The notes below the pieces were generated by a model. That model was not told the DNA's origin, ran no database searches, and saw nothing but the letters and a program-made list of their open reading frames with translations. The translations under genes and the position numbers were made by a program. A stretch of 5,772 nt of DNA, from the IMG/VR virus record IMGVR_UViG_3300029181_000054; one strand, written 5' to 3'. Shown piece after piece: positions 1 to 5,772 of the stretch; the first letter of the stretch is position 1, and each line of letters begins with the position of its first letter. This stretch comes from a virus (taxonomy: Duplodnaviria; Heunggongvirae; Uroviricota; Caudoviricetes).

Positions 1-76
1 CTGCACCTGGGCCATGTAAGCCGATTTTATTGCCTCGAAACCACCGAGCCGGAATTTCATGAAATCCCGGGAGGTA
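1..76 (-). pseudogene. exo: 3' remnant of lambda-type exonuclease gene (exo, Red-alpha); 5' portion deleted, continues beyond window start
   Basis: Reverse complement of 1-75 reads in one frame as [25 protein letters not shown], which matches an internal to C-terminal stretch of lambda Exo as I recall it (about residue 135 onward of 226). The expected exo start is present as ATG at 78-80 overlapping the bet stop (ATGA), but it is followed by only six codons (MIPPGIS) then TGA at 57-59, and is out of frame with the remnant. An in-frame ATG at 58-60 could at most give a C-terminal fragment. Confidence 0.75.
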
Positions 77-862
77 TCATGCTGCCACCTTCTGCTCAGT
101 GGCTTTCTGTTTCAGGAATCCAAGAGCTTTCACTGCTTCGGCCTGTGTCAGTTCTGACGATGCGCGAATGTCGCGGCGAAATATCTGGGAACAGAGCGGC
201 AATAAGTCGTCATCCCATGTTTTATCCAGGGCAATCAGCAGAGTGTTAATCTCCTGCATGGTTTCATCGTTAACCGGAGTGATGTCGCGTTCCGGCTGAC
301 GTTCTGCAGTGTATGCGGTATTTTCGACAATGCGCTCGGCTTCATCCTTGTCATAGATACCAGCAAATCCGAAGGCGAGACGGGCACACTGAATCATGGC
401 TTTATGCCGTAACATCCGTTTGGGATGCGACTGCCACGGCCCCGTGATTTCTCTGCCTTCGCGGGTTTTGAATGGTTCGCGGCGGCATTCATCCATCCAT
501 TCGGTAACGCAGATCGGATGATTACGGTCCTTGCGGTAAATCCGGCATGTACAGGATTCGTTGTCCTGCTCAAAGTCCATGCCATCAAACTGCTGGTTTT
601 CATTGATGATGCGGGACCAGCCATCAACGCCCACCACCGGAACGATGCCGTTCTGCTTATCAGGGAAGGCGTAAATTTCTTTCGTCCACGGATTAAGGCC
701 GTACTGGTTGGCGACGATCAGCAATGCGATGAACTGCGCATCGCTGGCATCACCTTTAAATGCCGTCTGGCGAAGAGTGGTGATCAGTTCCTGTGGGTCG
801 ACAGAATCCATGCCGACACGTTCAGCCAGCTTCCCTGCCAGCGTTGCGAGTGCTGTACTCAT
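77..862 (-). CDS. bet: Bet (Red-beta) single-strand annealing recombinase
   Basis: 261-aa ORF whose sequence ([82 protein letters not shown]...) matches lambda Bet essentially over its full length from memory. Five-nt gap to gam stop, as in lambda. Confidence 0.97.
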
Positions 863-867
863 CCGTT

Positions 868-1164
868 TTATACCTCTGAATCAATATCAACCTGGTGGTG
901 AGCAATGGTTTCAACCATGTACCGGATGTGTTCTGCCATGCGCTCCTGAAACTCAACATCGTCATCAAACGCACGGGTAATGGCTTTTTTGCTGGCCCCG
1001 TGGCGTTGCAAATGATCGATGCATAGCGATTCAAACAGGTGCTGGGGCAGGCCTTTTTCCATGTCGTCTGCCAGTTCTGCCTCTTTCTCTTCACGGGCGA
1101 TCTGCTGGTAGTGACGCGCCCAGCTCTGAGCCTCAAGACGATCCTGAATGTAATAAGCGTTCAT
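868..1164 (-). CDS. gam: Gam, RecBCD inhibitor (98-aa GamS-length form)
   Basis: 98-aa [24 protein letters not shown]...[10 protein letters not shown] matches lambda Gam from memory. AGGAG Shine-Dalgarno (window 1170-1174 complement) 5 nt upstream of ATG 1162-1164. The in-frame upstream extension has no Met and reaches a stop after about 19 codons, so only the short form can be made. Confidence 0.95.
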
Positions 1165-1239: not shown

Positions 1240-1530
1240 TTAGTGATTGAGGCCGTTACCGCGTCCGTCGAGAAAAACTTCCACGAGCAAATCACGGGTA
1301 TAAGTGCGCTCGATGCCGCGATGCAGATAAAGCCGTCCGCGTAAATTAGCTGATGCAGTCCAGGTACCATCTTTGTGTTTGACCAGCATTCCTGGCATGA
1401 CCGCACCGCGATTAACGGTCTGCGTTCCGTAATGTTGATGAACCATAAAAACTCCTGCCCGTAAGCTGGGCTGCTGAACATATAGAGACTTCTGCGCGTA
1501 TTCAGGCGGTGGATGGCCGCCGGTTGTCAT
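1240..1530 (-). CDS. Hypothetical small protein, first ORF of the putative pL operon (N/kil position); start uncertain
   Basis: Open frame 1240-1650 on the minus strand. Candidate starts: ATG 1444-1446 with a strong AGGAG Shine-Dalgarno 5 nt upstream (68 aa, [35 protein letters not shown]...); ATG 1528-1530 with a weaker GAGG-type site (96 aa); TTG 1648-1650 or GTG 1615-1617, which would add an arginine-rich N-terminus (RGVKRTRERR). No family recognised. Confidence 0.45.
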
Positions 1531-1668
1531 AACTAAGCCGCCTCGTTGAAGCGACTGAGGTATAAAGTGTTGTGTTGATTTCAGCTGGTCACACCGACGT
1601 TCACGCGTCCGTTTCACCCCTCGCACTCCCCGAAGCCTGCTGAAATTCAAACTGCGGATCTAAGCGGT

Positions 1669-1718
1669 CATCGCAACGGTGAAACAGGTGGTTACCGTAT
1701 CGTTGTGTCGTTGCGATG
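1669..1718 (-). other. Perfect 10-bp inverted repeat (CATCGCAACG / CGTTGCGATG) with 30-nt spacer in the putative pL leader; potential RNA hairpin or protein binding site
   Basis: Window 1669-1678 CATCGCAACG and 1709-1718 CGTTGCGATG are exact reverse complements. The element begins right after the predicted pL start and ends just before the in-frame stop that opens the downstream ORF. Confidence 0.4.
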
Positions 1719-1721
1719 AAT

Positions 1722-1800
1722 TTATTTAAAACTATAGTTGTTTTATCGTCAACAACAAAAGTTGTTTTATCGGTTGTTTTAAATATAACTGGTTGTATTT
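1722..1800 (-). promoter_or_regulatory. Candidate OL operator cluster and pL promoter (leftward)
   Basis: GTTGTT motifs at 1737-1742, 1761-1766, 1773-1778 (and GGTTGTA 1791-1797), plus an inverted AACAAC at 1751-1756 forming GTTGTT-N8-AACAAC; the same half-site forms the palindrome between cI and cro. Minus-strand -35 TTGACG (window 1747-1752), 17-nt spacer, -10 TTAAAT (window 1724-1729). Confidence 0.45.
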
Positions 1801-1890
1801 AGGATGGATTTATTTTGTGACTTGCATCGCATAGCGATAACTGAAGTGAGGTGTGGTGGTTTTTTGGACGGTATGAGTTATGAGGGGGAG

Positions 1891-1919
1891 GAAAAGAAAA
1901 CCCGGCGCGGTTGCCGGGT
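1891..1919 (-). terminator. Intrinsic (rho-independent) terminator downstream of the lipoprotein gene
   Basis: On the minus strand: GC-rich stem CCCGGC / GCCGGG (window 1901-1906 and 1913-1918) with a 6-nt loop, followed by TTTTCTTTTC. Starts 8 nt after the lipoprotein stop codon (1927-1929). Confidence 0.7.
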
Positions 1920-1926
1920 ATGATTA

Positions 1927-2307
1927 TCAGTCAGCCCAACCTGATTTCGAGTTTATTTGGGTTTCTGACATTGTGTATTTCTTAATCGTGTCATCGTTAA
2001 AAAGAATAGTAAGTTCTTTTTTCGTACCGTTCGTTCCATTATGGAATAATCCATAGAATGGAATAAAAGTGGTGCCATTAACTTTTACTTTTGCAAAGGC
2101 GTACTTCCAGATCTCCTTTCCACTGTCAGTATATGAAACAGCATCAGGAGAACCAAAGTAAGATTTAACCTCATTCTTGGTTGTTTTACCTTCCCGAAGT
2201 TTAGACTGGACACTAATTTCAGTTTCATTTTTGAGTTGCTGGTTGCCTGAAGAAGCACACCCAGCCAATACAGATGCCATCATGGCAGCGATTAGGATTT
2301 TTCTCAT
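1927..2307 (-). CDS. Small secreted lipoprotein (126 aa), AT-rich moron in the rexAB position; function unknown
   Basis: N-terminus MRKILIAAMMASVLAGCASS has a positively charged n-region, a hydrophobic core and a canonical lipobox LAGC (Cys17), with Ala at +2. The mature part has a pattern (SKLREGKTTKNEVKSYFGSPDAV ... LTILFNDDTIKKY) loosely reminiscent of BamE/SmpA-OmlA-type small lipoproteins; this is my recollection, not a search result. Sampled 60-nt segments are about one third GC, against more than half in bet. Confidence 0.85.
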   Translation of the reverse strand: MRKILIAAMMASVLAGCASSGNQQLKNETEISVQSKLREGKTTKNEVKSYFGSPDAVSYTDSGKEIWKYAFAKVKVNGTTFIPFYGLFHNGTNGTKKELTILFNDDTIKKYTMSETQINSKSGWAD

Positions 2308-2536: not shown

Positions 2537-3226
2537 TTAACCATGCTTCCTGTACGTCTGCGGCATGCTTCCAATGACCTTACCGAATATGAACACCCGG
2601 TTCATCTCGTCTTTCTCGATCGGGTCCCACGGCGAGTAGCTCTTGTTATCAGAGATAACCAGCAGCTTATCCTTCATCATTTGAAGACGTTTTACATGGG
2701 CAGTGTCGTCGTACAGAAACGCATAGATGCCATCACCGTCGAAAGATTTAACAGTGATATCAACGAACAGCAGGTCACCTGGTTCGATCGTCCCTGACAT
2801 GCTGTCACCTCGCACGTTAATGATGCGGATATTTTCCGCCTTCCTGCCATCGAACATGTGACGAGCATCGTCAAACGAGTACTCAACCGAGCGTAGAACT
2901 TCTACAAACTCACGGTTGATTACACCTGGCCCGGCACTGACTTCTATATCAAGAACGTCAATTTTGAAGTATTTGGAATGGCTGACAGTTGATTGTATTG
3001 GTTGCACTGTACTGTCTGACATATTTCCAACGCCAGAAGATAACCATTCTGCGCGCACACCCAAAGCGTTCGCGATCTCCACGATTTTAGTTGTTTGGTT
3101 AGCTTTCCCTGTTTCGATTTTCTGAATAGCAGCCTGGCTAACCCCGACCAAATCCCCAAGCGCCTTTTGTGTAAGGCCTCGCGCTAATCTGGCTTCTTTA
3201 AGTCTTTCTGAGAGTGTTGTTTTCAT
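2537..3226 (-). CDS. cI: CI-type prophage repressor: N-terminal XRE/Cro-CI helix-turn-helix and C-terminal S24 (LexA-like) autopeptidase domain
   Basis: 229 aa. N-terminal LTQKALGDLVGVSQAAIQKIETGK is a typical HTH. C-terminal RGDSMSGTIEPGDLLFVD (catalytic Ser) and VKRL (catalytic Lys) are S24 motifs, with a candidate Ala-Gly cleavage site in VSAGPG. Divergent from a cro-like gene across a 104-bp operator region. Not lambda cI. Confidence 0.93.
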   Translation of the reverse strand: MKTTLSERLKEARLARGLTQKALGDLVGVSQAAIQKIETGKANQTTKIVEIANALGVRAEWLSSGVGNMSDSTVQPIQSTVSHSKYFKIDVLDIEVSAGPGVINREFVEVLRSVEYSFDDARHMFDGRKAENIRIINVRGDSMSGTIEPGDLLFVDITVKSFDGDGIYAFLYDDTAHVKRLQMMKDKLLVISDNKSYSPWDPIEKDEMNRVFIFGKVIGSMPQTYRKHG

Positions 3227-3330
3227 AGATCAAATGTACAACCAAGGTTTTATTTCATCAAACGAAAATGGTTGTTGACTAAAAACAACCATAGTTTTAA
3301 TCTTGATTCGGATTAACCACGGAGGTTGTT
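3227..3330. promoter_or_regulatory. OR region: divergent pRM / pR promoters with palindromic operator(s)
   Basis: Perfect 25-bp palindrome ATGGTTGTT-gactaaa-AACAACCAT at 3268-3292 overlapping a plus-strand -35 TTGACT (3275-3280), with -10 TAATCT (3298-3303) and GGAGG Shine-Dalgarno at 3321-3325 before cro ATG 3331. A second, weaker site around 3236-3253 (ACAACC, palindrome AACCAAGGTT 3240-3249). Candidate minus-strand pRM: -35 TTGATG (window 3256-3261), -10 TACATT (window 3233-3238), which places the start at about the cI ATG (leaderless, as for lambda pRM). Confidence 0.55.
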
Positions 3331-3561
3331 ATGAACCCAGCAATCAAAACAGCGATCAATATCGTTGGTTCACAAAAGAAACTAGGCGATGCCTGCGAAG
3401 TTTCACAGCAGGCCGTCTATAAGTGGCTTCACAACAAAGCAAAGGTATCCCCTGAACATGTCGGCAGCATTGTTACGGCTACTGGTGGAGTTGTGAAGGC
3501 ATACCAGATTCGCCCGGATCTTCCGAAGTTGTTTCCACACACCGAAAAGAACGCAGCTTAA
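3331..3561 (+). CDS. cro: Cro-like HTH regulator of the YdaS family
   Basis: 76 aa, first gene rightward of the operator region, strong GGAGG Shine-Dalgarno. AIKTAINIVGSQKKLGDACEVSQQAVYKWL ... IRPDLPKLFP resembles my recollection of E. coli Rac YdaS (AIELAGGSQSALARLLGVSRQAVHQW ... RPDLW). Confidence 0.85.
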   Translation: MNPAIKTAINIVGSQKKLGDACEVSQQAVYKWLHNKAKVSPEHVGSIVTATGGVVKAYQIRPDLPKLFPHTEKNAA

Positions 3562-3573
3562 ATTTCCATTTCA

Positions 3574-3586
3574 CGCTCTTTAACAA
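3574..3586 (+). promoter_or_regulatory. boxA antitermination element (nutR-like position, immediately downstream of cro)
   Basis: CGCTCTTTAACAA at 3574-3586 matches the consensus boxA (rrn-type GCTCTTTAACAA; lambda nut boxA CGCTCTTA) and sits 13 nt after the cro stop, where nutR lies in lambda. No boxB-like hairpin is evident downstream. Confidence 0.55.
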
Positions 3587-3630
3587 TAAGCAATCAACTT
3601 AACAGTCAATTCAAACTAAAGGAGTCAATT

Positions 3631-4170
3631 ATGCAACCACTTACATACCAACAGACTAGCGGATTTATTCCGACTGCGGTGATAAATCGTTCTCAAACAA
3701 AACAAGCTCCAGGCCACGAAAAAATCCGTGATGCCGTCCGCGCCTGGTCGGCTGTAGATAATCAGGATGTCGTTGCCGCACTCATTGTGAATGAGTATCG
3801 GGAGCAGGGCGACGGCACCATCGATTTCCCTGATGATGTCAGCCGTGCACGCCAGAAGCTGTTCCGCTTCCTCGATAACAAATTCGATTCTGAAAAATAC
3901 CGAAATAACGTGCGTGAACTGACCCCGGCAATTCTGGCGGTACTACCGCTGGAATATCGCGGTTACCTGGTTGAGCAGGATAGCTTCATGACTCGGTTGG
4001 CTGAAATGGAAAAGGAACTCAGTGAGGCAAAACAGGCTGTCATTCTCAACGCACCACGCCACCAGAAACTGAAGGAAATGAGTGAAGGTATTGTGTCGAT
4101 GTTTCGTGTGGACCCGGATCTGGCTGGTCCATTAATGGCGATGGTGACCACCATGCTGGGGGCAATATGA
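3631..4170 (+). CDS. YdaT-family protein (CII-position regulator of YdaS/YdaT-type immunity regions)
   Basis: 179 aa with an AAGGAG Shine-Dalgarno. VAALIVNEYREQGDG and LTPAILAVLPLEYRGYL parallel VANAITEEYLRQGGG and LIPAILAILPRELR of E. coli Rac YdaT as I recall it. Sits between the cro-like gene and O, where cII lies in lambda. Its stop overlaps an upstream ATG in the O frame (ATGA at 4167-4170). Confidence 0.8.
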   Translation: MQPLTYQQTSGFIPTAVINRSQTKQAPGHEKIRDAVRAWSAVDNQDVVAALIVNEYREQGDGTIDFPDDVSRARQKLFRFLDNKFDSEKYRNNVRELTPAILAVLPLEYRGYLVEQDSFMTRLAEMEKELSEAKQAVILNAPRHQKLKEMSEGIVSMFRVDPDLAGPLMAMVTTMLGAI

Positions 4171-4256
4171 CAGGTTCAGAAATGGCGAAAGTCGGTCTGC
4201 GGGAACAGAACCGACTTTCAGGTGCAAATCGTAACACACTCATTGCGGGAGGAATT

Positions 4257-5186
4257 ATGGCAAACACTGCTGAGATATTCAATTTTCCAGTGCCGGATGC
4301 GGCACAAAAGGAGCCGCGCGTGGCAGATCTCGATGATGGTTATACGCGCATTGCAAATGAGTTGCTGGAAGCTGTGATGCTGGCCGGATTAACACAGCAC
4401 CAGCTTCTGGTCTTCCTGGCTGTCATGCGCAAAACATATGGCTTTAATAAAAAACTGGATTGGGTGAGCAACGAGCAACTTTCCGAGTTGACCGGGATAT
4501 TGCCGCACAAGTGTTCTGCTGCAAAAAGTGTTCTGGTAAAGCGTGGGATTTTTATTCAGAGCGGGCGGAATATCGGCATTAATAATGTGGTCAGTGAATG
4601 GTCAACATTACCCGAATCAGGTAAGAAAAATAAAGTTTACCTGAAAGAGGTAAATTTACCTGAATCAGGTAAGAAAAGTTTACCCAAATCAGGTAAAGGC
4701 ACTTACCCGAATCAGGTAAACACAAAAGACAAACTAACAAAAGACAATATAAAACCTTTTTCGTCCGAGAATTCTGGCGAATCCTCTGACCAACCAGAAA
4801 ACGATCTTCCTGTGGAGAAACCAGATGCTGCAATTCAGAGCGGCAGCAGGTGGGGGACAGCAGAAGACCTGACCGCCGCAGAGTGGATGTTTGACATGGT
4901 GAAGACCATCGCGCCATCAGCCAGAAAACCGAATTTTGCAGGGTGGGCTAACGATATCCGCCTGATGCGTGAACGTGACGGACGTAACCACCGCGACATG
5001 TGCGTGCTGTTCCGCTGGGCATGCCAGGACAACTTCTGGTCCGGTAACGTGCTGAGTCCGGCCAAACTCCGCGACAAGTGGACCCAGCTCGAAATCAACC
5101 GAAACAAGCAACAGGCTGGCGTGACAGCCGGCAAACCAAAACTCGACCTGACGAACACTGACTGGATTTACGGGGTGGATTTATGA
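4257..5186 (+). CDS. O: Replication initiator O (origin-binding protein), chimeric: non-lambda N-terminal region, lambda-like C-terminal region
   Basis: Start chosen at ATG 4257-4259 (GGGAGG Shine-Dalgarno 4245-4250) because MANTAEIFNF...VADLDDGYTRIANELLEA aligns with the lambda O N-terminus MTNTAKILNF...VADLDDGYARL. The open frame extends upstream to ATG 4167, an alternative start 30 codons longer. The C-terminal part (SGSRWGTAEDLTAAEWMFDMVKTIAPSARKPNFAGWANDIRLMRERDGRNHRDMCVLFRWACQDNFWSGNVLSPAKLRDKWTQLEINRNKQQAGVTAGKPKLDLTNTDWIYGVDL) is near-identical to lambda O from memory. The stop overlaps the P start (ATGA). Confidence 0.92.
   Translation: MANTAEIFNFPVPDAAQKEPRVADLDDGYTRIANELLEAVMLAGLTQHQLLVFLAVMRKTYGFNKKLDWVSNEQLSELTGILPHKCSAAKSVLVKRGIFIQSGRNIGINNVVSEWSTLPESGKKNKVYLKEVNLPESGKKSLPKSGKGTYPNQVNTKDKLTKDNIKPFSSENSGESSDQPENDLPVEKPDAAIQSGSRWGTAEDLTAAEWMFDMVKTIAPSARKPNFAGWANDIRLMRERDGRNHRDMCVLFRWACQDNFWSGNVLSPAKLRDKWTQLEINRNKQQAGVTAGKPKLDLTNTDWIYGVDL
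4608..4720 (+). repeat. ori iterons inside the O gene: five copies (one degenerate) of a 16-bp dyad-symmetric core TACC(C/T)(G/A)AATCAGGTAA
   Basis: Cores at 4609-4624 (TACCCGAATCAGGTAA), 4638-4653 (TACCTGAAAGAGGTAA, two mismatches), 4657-4672 (TACCTGAATCAGGTAA, a perfect palindrome), 4681-4696 (TACCCAAATCAGGTAA) and 4704-4719 (TACCCGAATCAGGTAA), at 19-29 bp spacing. They translate as the repetitive LPESGKK linker of O. Confidence 0.85.
4721..4765. other. AT-rich (A-rich) region flanking the iterons; putative DNA-unwinding part of the phage origin
   Basis: CACAAAAGACAAACTAACAAAAGACAATATAAAACCTTTTT lies directly right of the last iteron. Lambda ori has the same layout of iterons followed by an AT-rich segment within O. 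Confidence 0.6.
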
Positions 5187-5772
5187 AAAACATCGCCGCA
5201 CAGATGGTTAACTTTGACCGTGAGCAGATGCGCCGGATCGCCAACAATATGCCGGAACAGTACGACGAAAAGCCGCAGGTACAGCAGGTAGCGCAGATCA
5301 TCAACGGTGTGTTCAGCCAGTTACTGGCAACTTTCCCGGCGAGCCTGGCTAACCGTGACCAGAATGAACTGAACGAAATCCGCCGCCAGTGGGTTCTGGC
5401 TTTCCGGGAAAACGGGATCACCACAATGGAACAGGTTAACGCTGGAATGCGCGTAGCCCGTCGGCAGAATCGACCATTCCTGCCATCACCCGGGCAGTTT
5501 GTCGCCTGGTGCCGGGAAGAAGCATCTGTTAACGCCGGGCTGCCAAACGTCAGCGAGCTGGTTGATATGGTTTACGAGTATTGCCGGAAGCGTGGCCTGT
5601 ATCCGGATGCAGAGTCTTATCCGTGGAAATCGAACGCGCATTACTGGTTGGTTACCAACTTGTACCAGAACATGCGGGCCAATGCGCTGGCTGACGCGGA
5701 ATTACGGCGCAAGGCTGCCGATGAACTGACCTGTATGACAGCGCGAATTAACCGTGGTGAGACGATACCTGA
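5183..5772 (+). CDS. P: Replication protein P (DnaB helicase loader), 5' partial; continues beyond window end
   Basis: ATG 5183-5185 overlaps the O stop. Translation MKNIAAQMVNFDREQMRRIANNMPEQYDEKPQVQQVAQIINGVFSQLLATFPASLANRDQNE... matches lambda P from memory. No stop codon before the window ends; the six-frame track omits it for that reason. Confidence 0.95.
   Translation, partial: MKNIAAQMVNFDREQMRRIANNMPEQYDEKPQVQQVAQIINGVFSQLLATFPASLANRDQNELNEIRRQWVLAFRENGITTMEQVNAGMRVARRQNRPFLPSPGQFVAWCREEASVNAGLPNVSELVDMVYEYCRKRGLYPDAESYPWKSNAHYWLVTNLYQNMRANALADAELRRKAADELTCMTARINRGETIP

What the first reader, a model, noticed from the sequence alone, without database searches (positions are those of the whole stretch)
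3331..4170. Immunity module of the YdaS/YdaT type joined to lambda-type recombination and replication modules
Seen: the Cro-position and CII-position proteins resemble YdaS and YdaT, while the repressor is a full LexA-like CI with an S24 domain. Established: YdaS and YdaT of E. coli cryptic prophages (Rac, CP-933P) have been reinterpreted as Cro-like and CII-like regulators, not a toxin-antitoxin pair. Here the module sits between lambda-identical bet/gam and lambda-like O C-terminus and P, so this is a clean immunity-region swap of the imm434/imm21 kind. Direct repeats AGTCAATT at 3604-3611 and 3623-3630 flank the ydaT ribosome-binding site and might be regulatory, though that is weakly supported.
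Basis: partly seen in the sequence, partly recalled or inferred. Interest (0 to 1): 0.45.

Follow-up and report, generated by a model that had tools for sequence, protein, structure and literature searches.

The report
Common phi80-type lambdoid immunity module
This is the ordinary lysis/lysogeny control region of a very common E. coli lambda-like prophage, whose Cro and CII proteins belong to the families misleadingly named "YdaS/YdaT toxins"; the same arrangement is already annotated in phage phi80 and many other phages.

Summary
3331-3561 encodes a YdaS-family Cro. 3631-4170 encodes a YdaT-family CII, supported by Pfam and by a fold match to the solved YdaT structures. 2537-3226 encodes a full HTH+S24 CI with an Ala-Gly site and a Ser/Lys dyad. 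The AGTCAATT copies sit exactly where stated.

The flanks are lambda-like: bet/gam 97.9% DNA identity, O C-terminus/P 93.5%.

The module is not new. The CII is 66% identical to phage phi80 CII. HK639 clearly has the S24-CI + YdaS-Cro + YdaT-CII trio; in phi80 the Cro scores just under the Pfam YdaS cutoff. Phage PhiR26_1 is 99.2% identical with cI/cro/cII annotated. About 28% of complete E. coli genomes carry the cassette, at the DLP12 site in the one strain whose surroundings I read.

"Clean imm434-type swap" is only partly right. The non-lambda block is 3.47 kb, running from kil through the O N-terminus and iterons, with no N, cIII or rex. The real immunity-specific unit, seen against phage Perceval, is two small patches: OL, and cI-NTD/OR/cro/spacer.

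The repeats are marginal (local p about 0.05). They are absent from Perceval, which has the same CII, and one copy varies.

Extras found: three-operator OR, OL, an oop-like antisense RNA, and an rrn-type boxA without boxB or N.

The parts
77..862 (-). bet (Red beta), lambda-like flank
   Evidence: Pfam RecT 2.7e-33. 260/261 aa identical to lambda Bet. DNA 97.9% identical to lambda.
868..1164 (-). gam (98-aa form), lambda-like flank
   Evidence: Pfam Gam 3.4e-65. 96/98 aa identical to lambda.
1240..1446 (-). kil, KilR/phi80-type FtsZ inhibitor (68 aa). This is the first gene of the non-lambda block.
   Evidence: PHROG 294 and NCBIfam PRK11354 match only the last ~70 residues of the long ORF. 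PGAP bp. 11 of 12 variable sites are third codon positions, whereas 1447-1650 shows no codon bias.
1668..1719 (-). Hairpin at the predicted 5' end of the PL transcript (11-bp perfect stem). Function unknown.
   Evidence: Inverted repeat I18. Folding gives -19.2 kcal/mol, z -4.07. Conserved in Perceval apart from the last bases of the promoter-proximal arm.
1728..1768 (.). OL operators (OL1 1728-1744, OL2 1752-1768) overlapping PL. The -35 TTGACG on the minus strand is at 1752-1747.
   Evidence: Matches to AAAACAAC-N4-GTTTT fall at OL and OR, apart from one 3-mismatch match at 3316-3332 over the cro ribosome-binding site. 19 nt at 1726-1744 are 95% complementary to 3282-3300. The patch 1717-1808 is replaced in Perceval together with the cI N-terminus and OR. 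The promoter hexamers were read by eye.
1900..1919 (-). Intrinsic terminator ending the cI-lipoprotein transcript
   Evidence: Terminator scan: 7-bp stem with 6 GC pairs, followed by a T run.
1927..2307 (-). Lipoprotein moron in the rex position (SEN1984/BamE-like)
   Evidence: PHROG 3135 at 1.1e-47; weak Pfam BamE hit. RefSeq names. GC 0.37. Replaced by other genes in Perceval.
2537..3226 (-). cI repressor: HTH_3 N-terminal domain plus S24 autocleavage domain (Ala98-Gly99, Ser142, Lys179)
   Evidence: Pfam. Alignment with lambda and phi80 CI. Motif positions. The C-terminal domain is shared with Perceval and the N-terminal domain is not.
3235..3298 (.). OR: OR3 3235-3251, OR2 3259-3275 (weaker), OR1 3282-3298, with centres 24 and 23 bp apart. 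PR is TTGACT 3275-3280 with its -10 near 3296-3303. PRM is TTGATG 3261-3256, N17, TACATT 3238-3233, which would start the transcript at the cI ATG (leaderless).
   Evidence: Pattern search. 25-bp palindrome at 3268-3292. All 8 variable sites of 3227-3330 in 13 natural variants lie outside the three operators. Promoter hexamers were read by eye. Leaderless cI is inferred by analogy with lambda and CP-933P.
3331..3561 (+). cro analogue, YdaS family (76 aa)
   Evidence: PF15943 at 61.5 bits; PHROG 35. Weak sequence match to Xylella prophage Cro 3bd1. 9 of 11 variable sites are third codon positions. Annotated Cro in PhiR26_1.
3572..3587 (+). rrn-type boxA with spacer (CAC-GCTCTTTAACAAT) in the nutR position, with no boxB hairpin
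   Evidence: GCTCTTTAACAA is the only 0-mismatch match in the window. Same as rrn CACuGCUCUUUAACAAU quoted in PMC2724277. Invariant in 13 variants. The spacer RNA is unstructured, -4.1 kcal/mol, z 0.29.
3604..3630 (+). Two AGTCAATT copies (3604-3611, 3623-3630) around or overlapping the cII Shine-Dalgarno AAGGAG 3619-3624
   Evidence: Exact positions. Chance 4.6% locally. The second copy is AATCAATT in variants. Absent in Perceval.
3631..4170 (+). cII analogue, YdaT family, phi80-CII type (179 aa). Residues 1-25 are predicted disordered, then an all-helical body.
   Evidence: PF06254 at 104.5 bits; PHROG 163. 66% identical to phi80 CII. Fold match to 8bt1/3c4r. Model mean pLDDT 70, about 90 over residues 31-110.
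4176..4282 (-). oop/M3-like antisense RNA. Promoter is TTGAAT-17-CATAAT with TG (4282-4254). The terminator hairpin is at about 4186-4219. The RNA is antisense to the cII 3' end.
   Evidence: Promoter scan. Folding gives -24.6 kcal/mol, z -3.39. Aligns with annotated phi80 M3 RNA, HK639 M3-like RNA and lambda oop. No Rfam family match.
4257..5186 (+). Replication initiator O (309 aa). The N-terminal domain and the linker carrying the iterons are non-lambda; the C-terminus is lambda-like. Five ori iterons TTACCYGAAWSAGGTAA lie at 4608-4724.
   Evidence: Pfam Phage_rep_O; PHROG 277 at 3.4e-163. Iterons. Identity to lambda O is 47%, 29% and 94% by segment. The start at 4257 is inferred from the RBS and the Po overlap, as in lambda. 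Database annotations use 4167.
5183..5772 (+). Replication protein P (partial), lambda-like
   Evidence: Pfam Phage_lambda_P at 7.7e-61. 96.9% aa identity to lambda P.

Best explanation
The finding lies within the lysis/lysogeny decision module of a widespread E. coli lambdoid prophage/phage lineage. In strain GB089 it sits at the DLP12/argU site. Isolated phages include PhiR26_1, 4A7, 1W/3W and relatives.

Lysogenic state (inferred from anatomy):
- CI (HTH + S24) binds 17-bp AAAAC-N7-GTTTT-type operators, three at OR and at least two at OL.
- This shuts off PR and PL and regulates its own, probably leaderless, PRM transcript.
- That transcript also carries a lipoprotein moron and ends at a terminator at 1919-1900.
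- SOS-activated RecA would trigger self-cleavage at Ala98-Gly99 by Ser142/Lys179.

After infection or induction (inferred):
- PR transcribes cro (YdaS family), a short C-rich unstructured spacer carrying an rrn-type boxA, then cII (YdaT family), O and P.
- Cro re-binds OR to shut PRM.
- By homology with CP-933P YdaT and phi80 CII, the CII analogue is a tetrameric POU-like helix-turn-helix protein. It would activate a weak leftward establishment promoter near the cro/cII junction to start cI synthesis.
- A convergent oop-like antisense RNA overlapping the cII 3' end damps cII expression.
- O binds five iterons inside its own gene. Its lambda-like C-terminus works with a lambda-like P.

Shown here: family membership, fold, catalytic motifs, operator pattern and its co-variation with the cI N-terminus, mosaic boundaries, oop homology, prevalence.

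Inferred: promoter positions, leaderless cI, CII activation and its site, the roles of boxA and the repeats.

The AGTCAATT repeats are most likely incidental sequence around the cII ribosome-binding site.
For: - Family and fold assignments.
- CI catalytic motifs.
- Operators: the motif falls at OL and OR apart from one 3-mismatch match at 3316-3332. PL and PR share 19 nt at 95% complementarity. The OL patch and the cI-NTD/OR/cro patch are swapped together in Perceval. No natural variation falls inside the operators.
- oop-like RNA.
- Iterons.
- Lambda boundaries.
- Same gene order annotated as cI/Cro/cII/O/P in PhiR26_1 at 99.2% identity, and as CI/Cro-like/CII plus M3 RNA in phi80.
- CII is 66% identical to phi80 CII.
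- HK639 has the S24-CI + YdaS + YdaT combination; phi80 has S24-CI and YdaT-CII, with its Cro at 29.8 bits against the YdaS cutoff of 30.
- Experimental basis for YdaS=Cro and YdaT=CII function, including PRE activation and DNA binding, in CP-933P: PMC8630535 and PMC9986795.
- Prevalence: cassette in 1506 of 5426 complete E. coli genomes at >=80% coverage. GB089 context next to tRNA-Arg/intD.
Against: - No experiment on this particular CII. It is only 27-28% identical to the characterised CP-933P YdaT.
- Its operator TTGATT-N6-AATCAA is not present in the cro-cII region; the best match there, 3580-3597, has 3 mismatches.
- I could not identify a convincing PRE or CII site. No dyad motif is shared between the cro/cII junction, the int-upstream region and the Q gene of GB089.
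- There is no cIII homologue, so control of CII stability may differ from lambda.
- The promoter scan did not call PR, PRM or PL at its thresholds; those are my reading.
- OR2 is a weak match to the operator pattern.
Confidence: 0.88

Rival explanations
1. The two genes are a YdaS/YdaT toxin-antitoxin pair, as the Pfam names and RefSeq product names ('toxin YdaT domain-containing protein') imply.
For: Pfam family names and RefSeq product names. Overexpression toxicity of Rac YdaS/YdaT has been reported (PMC5700377 and PMC5700373, listed).
Against: - Position and order are exactly those of cro and cII, between a divergent S24 repressor with operators and the replication gene O.
- The fold is a DNA-binding POU-like HTH (PMC9986795).
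- CP-933P YdaT is non-toxic and activates PRE (PMC8630535).
- Jobling's critique.
- The ortholog in phi80 is the annotated cII.
Confidence: 0.03
2. The AGTCAATT direct repeats are binding sites for the CII-like protein (or for Cro/CI) and form part of an establishment promoter or a translational control element for cII.
For: - Exact 8-mers 19 bp apart, next to the cII start.
- On the minus strand they read AATTGACT, which contains a near-consensus -35 (TTGACT). This is my reading of the sequence.
- Local chance is only about 5%.
- CP-933P YdaT binds near the ydaS/ydaT junction.
Against: - Perceval has a 97%-identical CII but an unrelated spacer without these repeats. Homology starts exactly at the cII ATG.
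- In 6 of 10 relatives compared, cro and cII are only 2 nt apart.
- Natural variants change the second copy to AATCAATT and insert 12 nt just upstream.
- YdaT is a 222-symmetric tetramer suited to inverted, not direct, repeats.
- The repeats do not resemble the CI operator motif.
- The window holds about six such local 8-mer repeats outside the operators and iterons, against about 1.8 expected overall.
Confidence: 0.1
3. The region is a decayed, non-functional remnant (cryptic prophage) rather than a working switch.
For: - The window carries a 397-bp frameshifting deletion in exo.
- In GB089 ren is a pseudogene and an IS3 is present.
- The DLP12-site prophage of K-12 is known to be defective (own knowledge).
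Against: - Phage PhiR26_1, a complete phage record whose host is given as E. coli K-12 MG1655, carries the same module at 99.2% identity.
- cro, cII and kil show third-position-biased variation.
- The operators are invariant.
- All catalytic motifs of CI are intact.
Confidence: 0.07

Closest known systems
Phage phi80 immunity region (cI - gene 30/cro - cII - M3 RNA - gene 15/14), GenBank JX871397 and X13065
   Same: - Same gene order.
- CI has HTH + S24.
- Cro-like protein sits at the YdaS threshold (29.8 bits against a cutoff of 30).
- CII is YdaT family (98.7 bits) and 66% identical to the window protein.
- oop-like M3 RNA lies between cII and the O-like gene.
- KilR-type kil, plus a shared 27-28-nt element upstream of kil.

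   Different: - cI and cro are unrelated in sequence (24% identity and not significant), so immunity specificity differs.
- phi80 has N, nutL and tL1 terminators between PL and kil; the window has none.
- phi80 has a GC hairpin spanning the cro stop codon, where the window has an AT-rich spacer with boxA.
- The window uses lambda-type O C-terminus and P.
CP-933P (Sp12) PaaR2-YdaS-YdaT module of E. coli O157:H7 (PMC8630535; PMC9986795; PDB 8bt1)
   Same: - YdaS-family Cro analogue and YdaT-family CII analogue downstream of PR, upstream of O.
- Same fold (Foldseek probability 1.0).
- An Arg of the recognition helix is conserved in the alignment (R72).
- A leaderless repressor transcript is likely.
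   Different: - Only 27-28% identity.
- The CP-933P repressor PaaR2 lacks the S24 domain and is followed by a ParE toxin-antitoxin pair.
- The window has a full SOS-cleavable CI followed by a lipoprotein gene.
- The CP-933P YdaT operator TTGATT-N6-AATCAA is not found here.
Rac prophage RacR-YdaS-YdaT (E. coli K-12)
   Same: Founding members of the two Pfam families. Same relative positions. Also accompanied by KilR (PMC5917428).
   Different: - The window has a full HTH+S24 CI; to my knowledge RacR is a short repressor without one (not checked here).
- The proteins are distant homologues; 3c4r-type YdaT is 27% identical.
- Rac is defective.
Phage lambda CI-Cro-CII-oop switch and imm434/imm21 hybrids
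   Same: - Architecture: divergent PRM/PR with three operators 23-24 bp apart, OL/PL, CI with S24 cleavage, oop antisense RNA with its promoter overlapping the O start.
- Mosaic joints are at the cII start and within O just after the iterons.
   Different: - No sequence similarity of CI-NTD, Cro or CII to lambda.
- CII is a different fold family.
- No N, nut boxB, cIII or rex.
- The non-lambda block is far larger than an imm434-type substitution.
Phage Perceval and 4A7 / Lambda_4C10 / 1W / 3W group
   Same: Same backbone across the window: kil, PL leader, cI C-terminal domain, CII 97%, O, P.
   Different: Hetero-immune. The OL patch (1717-1808) and the cI-NTD/OR/cro/spacer patch (3094-3629) are replaced, and a different moron lies between cI and PL.

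Membership tests
YdaT family (Pfam PF06254; CII functional analogues) | Sequence matches the family HMM above the curated cutoff | tested here: met
   104.5 bits against a cutoff of 21, E 4.3e-30. PHROG 163 at 1.4e-66. All 120 listed homologues carry PF06254.
YdaT family (Pfam PF06254; CII functional analogues) | POU-like helix-turn-helix fold as in PDB 8bt1/3c4r | tested here: met
   For the AlphaFold model (mean pLDDT 70, about 90 in the core), the only significant PDB matches are 3c4r and 8bt1: probability 1.00, TM 0.62-0.67 per target.
YdaT family (Pfam PF06254; CII functional analogues) | Conserved arginine in the recognition helix (Arg60 of CP-933P YdaT) | tested here: met
   R72 of the window protein aligns with an Arg of 8bt1 and is invariant in 30 homologues. 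Equating it with 'Arg60' assumes a 14-residue tag in the PDB chain; that is an inference.
YdaT family (Pfam PF06254; CII functional analogues) | Gene lies directly after the cro analogue and before the replication initiator, in the PR operon | tested here: met
   ORF map. Same order in PhiR26_1, phi80 and HK639.
YdaT family (Pfam PF06254; CII functional analogues) | Binds an inverted repeat near the ydaS/ydaT junction (TTGATT-N6-AATCAA in CP-933P) and activates a leftward PRE | tested here: inconclusive
   The CP-933P site is absent; the best match in the junction has 3 mismatches. Recognition-helix sequences vary in the family, so a different site is expected. No candidate was found. Binding and activation cannot be tested with these tools.
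YdaS family (Pfam PF15943; Cro analogues) | HMM match above cutoff, and first gene of the operon divergent from the repressor | tested here: met
   61.5 bits against a cutoff of 30. PHROG 35. Position 104 bp from cI across OR.
LexA/CI-type S24 repressors | N-terminal HTH, C-terminal S24 domain, Ala-Gly cleavage site, Ser/Lys dyad | tested here: met
   Pfam HTH_3 5.4e-13 and Peptidase_S24 1.2e-18. A98-G99, S142 and K179 aligned with lambda and phi80 CI.
Lambda-type bistable switch (OR/OL operators) | Repeated operators overlapping divergent promoters, repeated at PL, and specific to the repressor DNA-binding domain | tested here: met
   The motif falls at OR and OL, apart from one 3-mismatch match at 3316-3332 over the cro RBS. 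Centres are 24 and 23 bp apart. The OL patch co-varies with cI-NTD/OR in Perceval. Operators are invariant among variants. Protein binding was not tested.
imm434/imm21-type immunity substitution in a lambda backbone | Only the immunity region differs from lambda; N or the remaining early genes and both flanks are lambda | tested here: not met
   Lambda homology ends at 1249 and resumes at 4720. The gap includes kil, the O N-terminus and ori, and lacks N, cIII, ral, sieB and rex.
Type II toxin-antitoxin pair | One product is a toxin neutralised by the adjacent antitoxin | not testable with these tools
   Context and fold argue against it.
N/nut antitermination site (nutR) | boxA followed by a boxB hairpin, plus an N gene downstream of PL | tested here: not met
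   - boxA is present and perfect.
- There is no hairpin in 3556-3645.
- No boxA within 3 mismatches in the PL leader.
- The ORF upstream of kil has no codon-position bias and suffers non-triplet indels in relatives.
oop / M3 antisense RNA | Leftward promoter overlapping the O start codon, about 70-nt transcript ending in a terminator inside or abutting the cII 3' end | tested here: met
   Extended -10 promoter. Hairpin z -3.39. Aligned with annotated phi80 M3, HK639 M3-like and lambda oop. No transcript data. No Rfam hit.

The most novel reading that the evidence does not exclude
The cro-cII spacer carries a perfect ribosomal-operon-type boxA (CAC-GCTCTTTAACAAT, 3572-3587). It sits in unstructured, C-rich/G-poor RNA, with no boxB hairpin. 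The phage has no N gene and no matching nutL.

The most novel reading is that this lineage uses the host Nus complex alone, which could work in either of two ways:
- rrn-like N-independent anti-Rho protection of the PR transcript;
- suhB-like Nus-dependent translational repression or Rho attenuation.

Either way, host Nus/Rho status would gate entry into cII-O-P expression, and so the lysis/lysogeny decision.
Probability: 0.25. Interest if true: 0.45.

Novelty: already known. Interest (0 to 1): 0.12.

Why it matters
Mostly as a correction of annotation. About a quarter of complete E. coli genomes carry a gene labelled 'toxin YdaT domain-containing protein' that is in fact the CII-type lysogeny regulator of a working lambda-like switch. 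The neighbouring 'transcriptional regulator' is its Cro.

The Perceval comparison gives a clean natural example of how immunity specificity is exchanged. Two short co-varying patches (OL, and cI-NTD/OR/cro) move inside an otherwise shared backbone. That is useful for predicting superinfection immunity groups among these prophages.

The orphan boxA is the only element that could lead to something new.

Tried and rejected
(1) CP-933P YdaT operator. I searched for TTGATT-N6-AATCAA. Only matches with 2 or more mismatches appear across the window, and none is convincing at the cro/cII junction.

(2) Shared dyad motifs. I looked for direct or inverted dyads (4-5-nt half-sites, 0-12 nt gaps) shared by the cro/cII junction, the int-upstream region and the Q gene of strain GB089, as candidate CII sites. 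None was found.

(3) A PRE promoter by eye on the minus strand of 3560-3720. There are candidates: CATAAT at 3632-3627, and a 9-nt match ACTTACATA to the lambda PRE -10 region recalled from memory. Nothing is testable, so I make no claim.

(4) A put-type antiterminator RNA in the PL leader. There is no similarity to the annotated HK639 putL-like RNA. No Rfam hit. The whole leader folds no better than shuffles, z -0.8. Only the 5' hairpin stands out.

(5) A hidden N-like protein. The long ORF 1240-1650 contains 'KRTRERR', which resembles the lambda N arginine-rich motif. I rejected it for four reasons:
- no family hit for that part;
- variable sites show no codon-position bias (6 third, 5 first, 4 second), against 11 of 12 third positions in kil;
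- relatives have 13-nt and 4-nt indels there;
- PGAP calls only the 68-aa kil.

(6) Literature search for putL/HK639 returned only irrelevant papers.

(7) Scan of viral contigs for the boxA 14-mer. It returned over 120 loci of mixed context, 9 of them this same cassette. It was not informative about function.

(8) Rfam scan of the window at E<=1. Only one chance-level hit.
Full report
**What is in the window**

The ORF map and profile searches give a standard lambdoid early region:

| Coordinates | Strand | Gene or feature |
|---|---|---|
| 77-862 | - | bet |
| 868-1164 | - | gam |
| 1240-1446 | - | KilR/phi80-type kil |
| 1927-2307 | - | lipoprotein gene |
| 2537-3226 | - | HTH+S24 repressor (cI) |
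| 3331-3561 | + | 76-aa YdaS-family protein (cro analogue) |
| 3631-4170 | + | 179-aa YdaT-family protein (cII analogue) |
| 4257-5186 | + | replication protein O |
| 5183 onward | + | start of P |

**Checking the observation**

- The Cro-position protein scores 61.5 bits on Pfam YdaS_toxin (cutoff 30).
- The CII-position protein scores 104.5 bits on YdaT_toxin (cutoff 21), and 1.4e-66 on PHROG 163 'CII-like transcriptional activator'.
- By sequence alone the CII-position protein is only weakly similar to the solved YdaT structures (E 5.5e-4). An AlphaFold model built on 30 homologues has mean pLDDT 70, about 90 over residues 31-110. It finds 3c4r and 8bt1 (YdaT of CP-933P) as its only significant PDB matches: probability 1.00, TM 0.62-0.67, 27-28% identity.
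- The repressor has Ala98-Gly99, Ser142 and Lys179 aligned with lambda and phi80 CI.
- Both genes look like coding genes under selection. In cro, 9 of 11 variable sites are third codon positions; cII has 148 third, 77 first and 51 second.
- AGTCAATT occurs exactly at 3604 and 3623 and nowhere else.

First, bet/gam are 97.9% identical to lambda in DNA, not fully identical; Bet is 260/261 aa and Gam 96/98. Second, the second repeat overlaps the Shine-Dalgarno AAGGAG (3619-3624) rather than flanking it.

**Is it unusual? No.**

- The CII-position protein is 66% identical over its full length to CII of the classical phage phi80. It is 52% identical to CII of HK639 and 66% to CII of mEp237.
- I ran Pfam on phi80 and HK639. 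phi80 has an S24 CI and a YdaT-family CII, and its Cro sits at the YdaS threshold (29.8 bits against 30). HK639 has all three clearly above threshold.
- Jurenas et al. already note that CP-933P YdaT is homologous to phi80 CII (PMC8630535).
- Phage PhiR26_1, whose host is given as E. coli K-12 MG1655, is 99.2% identical to the whole window and is annotated cI, Cro, cII, O, P.
- The 434-bp cassette 3227-3660 is present at >=80% coverage in 1506 of 5426 complete E. coli genomes. In strain GB089 it lies in the prophage next to tRNA-Arg/intD, the DLP12 site.

**Mosaic structure**

Against lambda, DNA homology covers 73-1249 and 4720-5772 only.
- The right joint falls immediately after the last ori iteron. 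O residues 1-160 are 29-47% identical to lambda O and residues 161-309 are 94% identical.
- The 3.47-kb non-lambda block includes kil, PL/OL, the moron, cI, cro, cII, an oop-like RNA, the O N-terminal domain and five iterons. It has no N, nutL, cIII, ral, sieB or rex.

This is therefore not an imm434-type substitution in a lambda backbone. It is a different lambdoid lineage that shares the red and replication modules.

The comparison with phage Perceval is more informative. The two share everything in the window except three stretches:
- the moron;
- a 90-bp patch at 1717-1808;
- the stretch 3094-3629.

The cI C-terminal domain and CII (97%) are common to both. The cI N-terminal domain, OR, cro and the cro-cII spacer differ, and homology resumes exactly at the cII ATG.

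**The switch**

- The motif AAAAC(AAC)-N-GTTTT occurs at 3235-3251, 3282-3298, 1728-1744 and 1752-1768, with one further 3-mismatch match at 3316-3332 over the cro ribosome-binding site. A weaker copy lies at 3259-3275, giving OR centres 24 and 23 bp apart.
- PL and PR share 19 nt at 95% complementarity.
- The 1717-1808 patch that differs in Perceval is precisely the OL region. Perceval's replacement resembles its own OR. Operators and the repressor DNA-binding domain therefore co-vary.
- Among 13 natural variants, all 8 variable sites of 3227-3330 fall outside the three operators.
- My reading of the promoters is inferred and was not called by the scan. PR is TTGACT at 3275-3280. PRM is TTGATG-N17-TACATT, which would start at the cI ATG (leaderless, as in lambda and CP-933P). 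PL has TTGACG at 1752-1747.
- A terminator at 1919-1900 ends the cI-lipoprotein unit.

**Downstream of cII**

- A minus-strand promoter TTGAAT-17-CATAAT with an upstream TG lies at 4282-4254. A strong hairpin follows it (-24.6 kcal/mol, z -3.39).
- The stretch aligns with the annotated phi80 M3 RNA, the HK639 M3-like RNA and lambda oop.
- This also argues that O starts at 4257, not at 4167 as in database annotations.

**The repeats**

- An exact 8-mer direct repeat arises in 4.6% of shuffles of the 69-nt spacer.
- The window holds 11 such local repeats against 1.8 expected. Five of them belong to the operators and iterons.
- The repeats lie in the cassette-specific spacer, which Perceval lacks although its CII is the same.
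- In 6 of 10 relatives compared, cro and cII are only 2 nt apart.
- Natural variants carry AATCAATT in the second copy and a 12-nt insertion upstream.
- YdaT is built for inverted repeats.

I conclude that the repeats are probably incidental. At most they affect cII translation.

**What I could not find**

I could not find a CII binding site or a PRE. The CP-933P operator is absent and no dyad is shared with the int or Q regions. By analogy with lambda, and given the Perceval joint, the site is more likely inside the first part of the cII coding sequence. That is inference.

**An unexpected detail**

- The spacer contains CAC-GCTCTTTAACAAT (3572-3587). GCTCTTTAACAA is the only exact match in the window.
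- It equals the E. coli rrn boxA plus spacer, CACuGCUCUUUAACAAU, and is closer to consensus than lambda nutR's CGCUCUUA (PMC2724277).
- It sits where lambda has nutR and is invariant in 13 variants.
- There is no boxB. The spacer RNA is unstructured and C-rich/G-poor (15 C against 6 G).
- No boxA lies in the PL leader, and there is no N gene.
- An arginine-rich stretch in the long ORF upstream of kil is not coding. It shows no codon-position bias, against 11 of 12 third positions in kil, and relatives have non-triplet indels there.

Whether this orphan boxA works with host Nus factors alone is open. It is the only part of the region with some potential for novelty.

**Verdict**

This is a correct description of an already known and already annotated module type. 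The mosaic interpretation is overstated, and the regulatory-repeat idea is unsupported.

Noticed in passing
window 3572-3587 (+): Perfect rrn-type boxA plus spacer (CAC-GCTCTTTAACAAT) in the cro-cII spacer, the nutR position. There is no boxB hairpin, no N gene and no boxA in the PL leader. The spacer is unstructured and C-rich/G-poor, so it looks like a rut site.
   Followed up: partly
window 4176-4282 (-): oop/M3-like antisense RNA. An extended -10 promoter overlaps the O start codon at 4257, and a terminator hairpin abuts the cII stop. It implies that O starts at 4257 rather than the annotated 4167.
   Followed up: yes
window 1-80 (junction between 76 and 77): Relative to PhiR26_1, lambda and E. 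coli GB089, the window lacks 397 bp of exo. The exo ATG is followed by 7 codons and a stop, so exo is a frameshifted pseudogene here. All eight E. coli matches listed for window 1-160 need two pieces spanning 557 bp, so none of them carries this junction.
   Followed up: partly
window 1717-1808 and 3094-3629, against L002 (Perceval) 2145-2235 and 4583-5085: Immunity specificity is exchanged as two short co-varying patches (OL/PL, and cI-NTD/OR/cro/spacer) inside an otherwise shared backbone. The joints fall inside cI, between its two domains, and exactly at the cII ATG.
   Followed up: yes
window 1668-1719 (-): Perfect 11-bp stem with a 30-nt loop at the predicted 5' end of the PL transcript (z -4.07). 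It is conserved in the hetero-immune Perceval. It does not resemble the HK639 putL-like RNA. Function unknown.
   Followed up: partly
window 1508-1534 (-): A 27-nt element, TATGACAACCGGCGGCCATCCACCGCC (hairpin GGCGG-N7-CCGCC), lies upstream of kil. It is nearly invariant in phi80, HK225 and HK639, where it follows tL1-type terminators. In HK639 its counterpart lies at 261-307 of locus L006 and overlaps a terminator annotated at 256-284 there. Role unknown.
   Followed up: partly
window 1447-1650 (-): The long ORF fused in frame to kil contains an N-like arginine-rich stretch (KRTRERR). It shows no codon-position bias and is broken by non-triplet indels in relatives. Several phage records annotate this longer 'Kil' (378-420 bp), which is probably wrong.
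   Followed up: yes
window 1927-2307 (-), terminator 1919-1900: A low-GC (0.37) lipoprotein moron (SEN1984/BamE-like, PHROG 3135) occupies the rex position downstream of cI. Perceval carries unrelated genes there.
   Followed up: no
window 4608-4724 (+): Five ori iterons, TTACCYGAAWSAGGTAA, lie inside O. Lambda homology resumes right after the last one, so origin specificity travels with the O N-terminal domain.
   Followed up: yes
L014 (E. coli E57) 574-585; also IMG/VR loci L040 and L107: A natural variant of the spacer has a 12-nt insertion, TTAACAGACTGA (a partial duplication), between boxA and the first AGTCAATT. It also has a G-to-A change that weakens the cII Shine-Dalgarno.
   Followed up: partly
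L005 (phi80) 4461-4490; L006 (HK639), L008, L009 and L002 at equivalent positions: Several phi80-type relatives have a GC-rich hairpin whose loop contains the cro stop codon (GCCGCC-TAAC-CGGCGGC). It is followed by CTAACCACGAA. The window's spacer lacks it.
   Followed up: no
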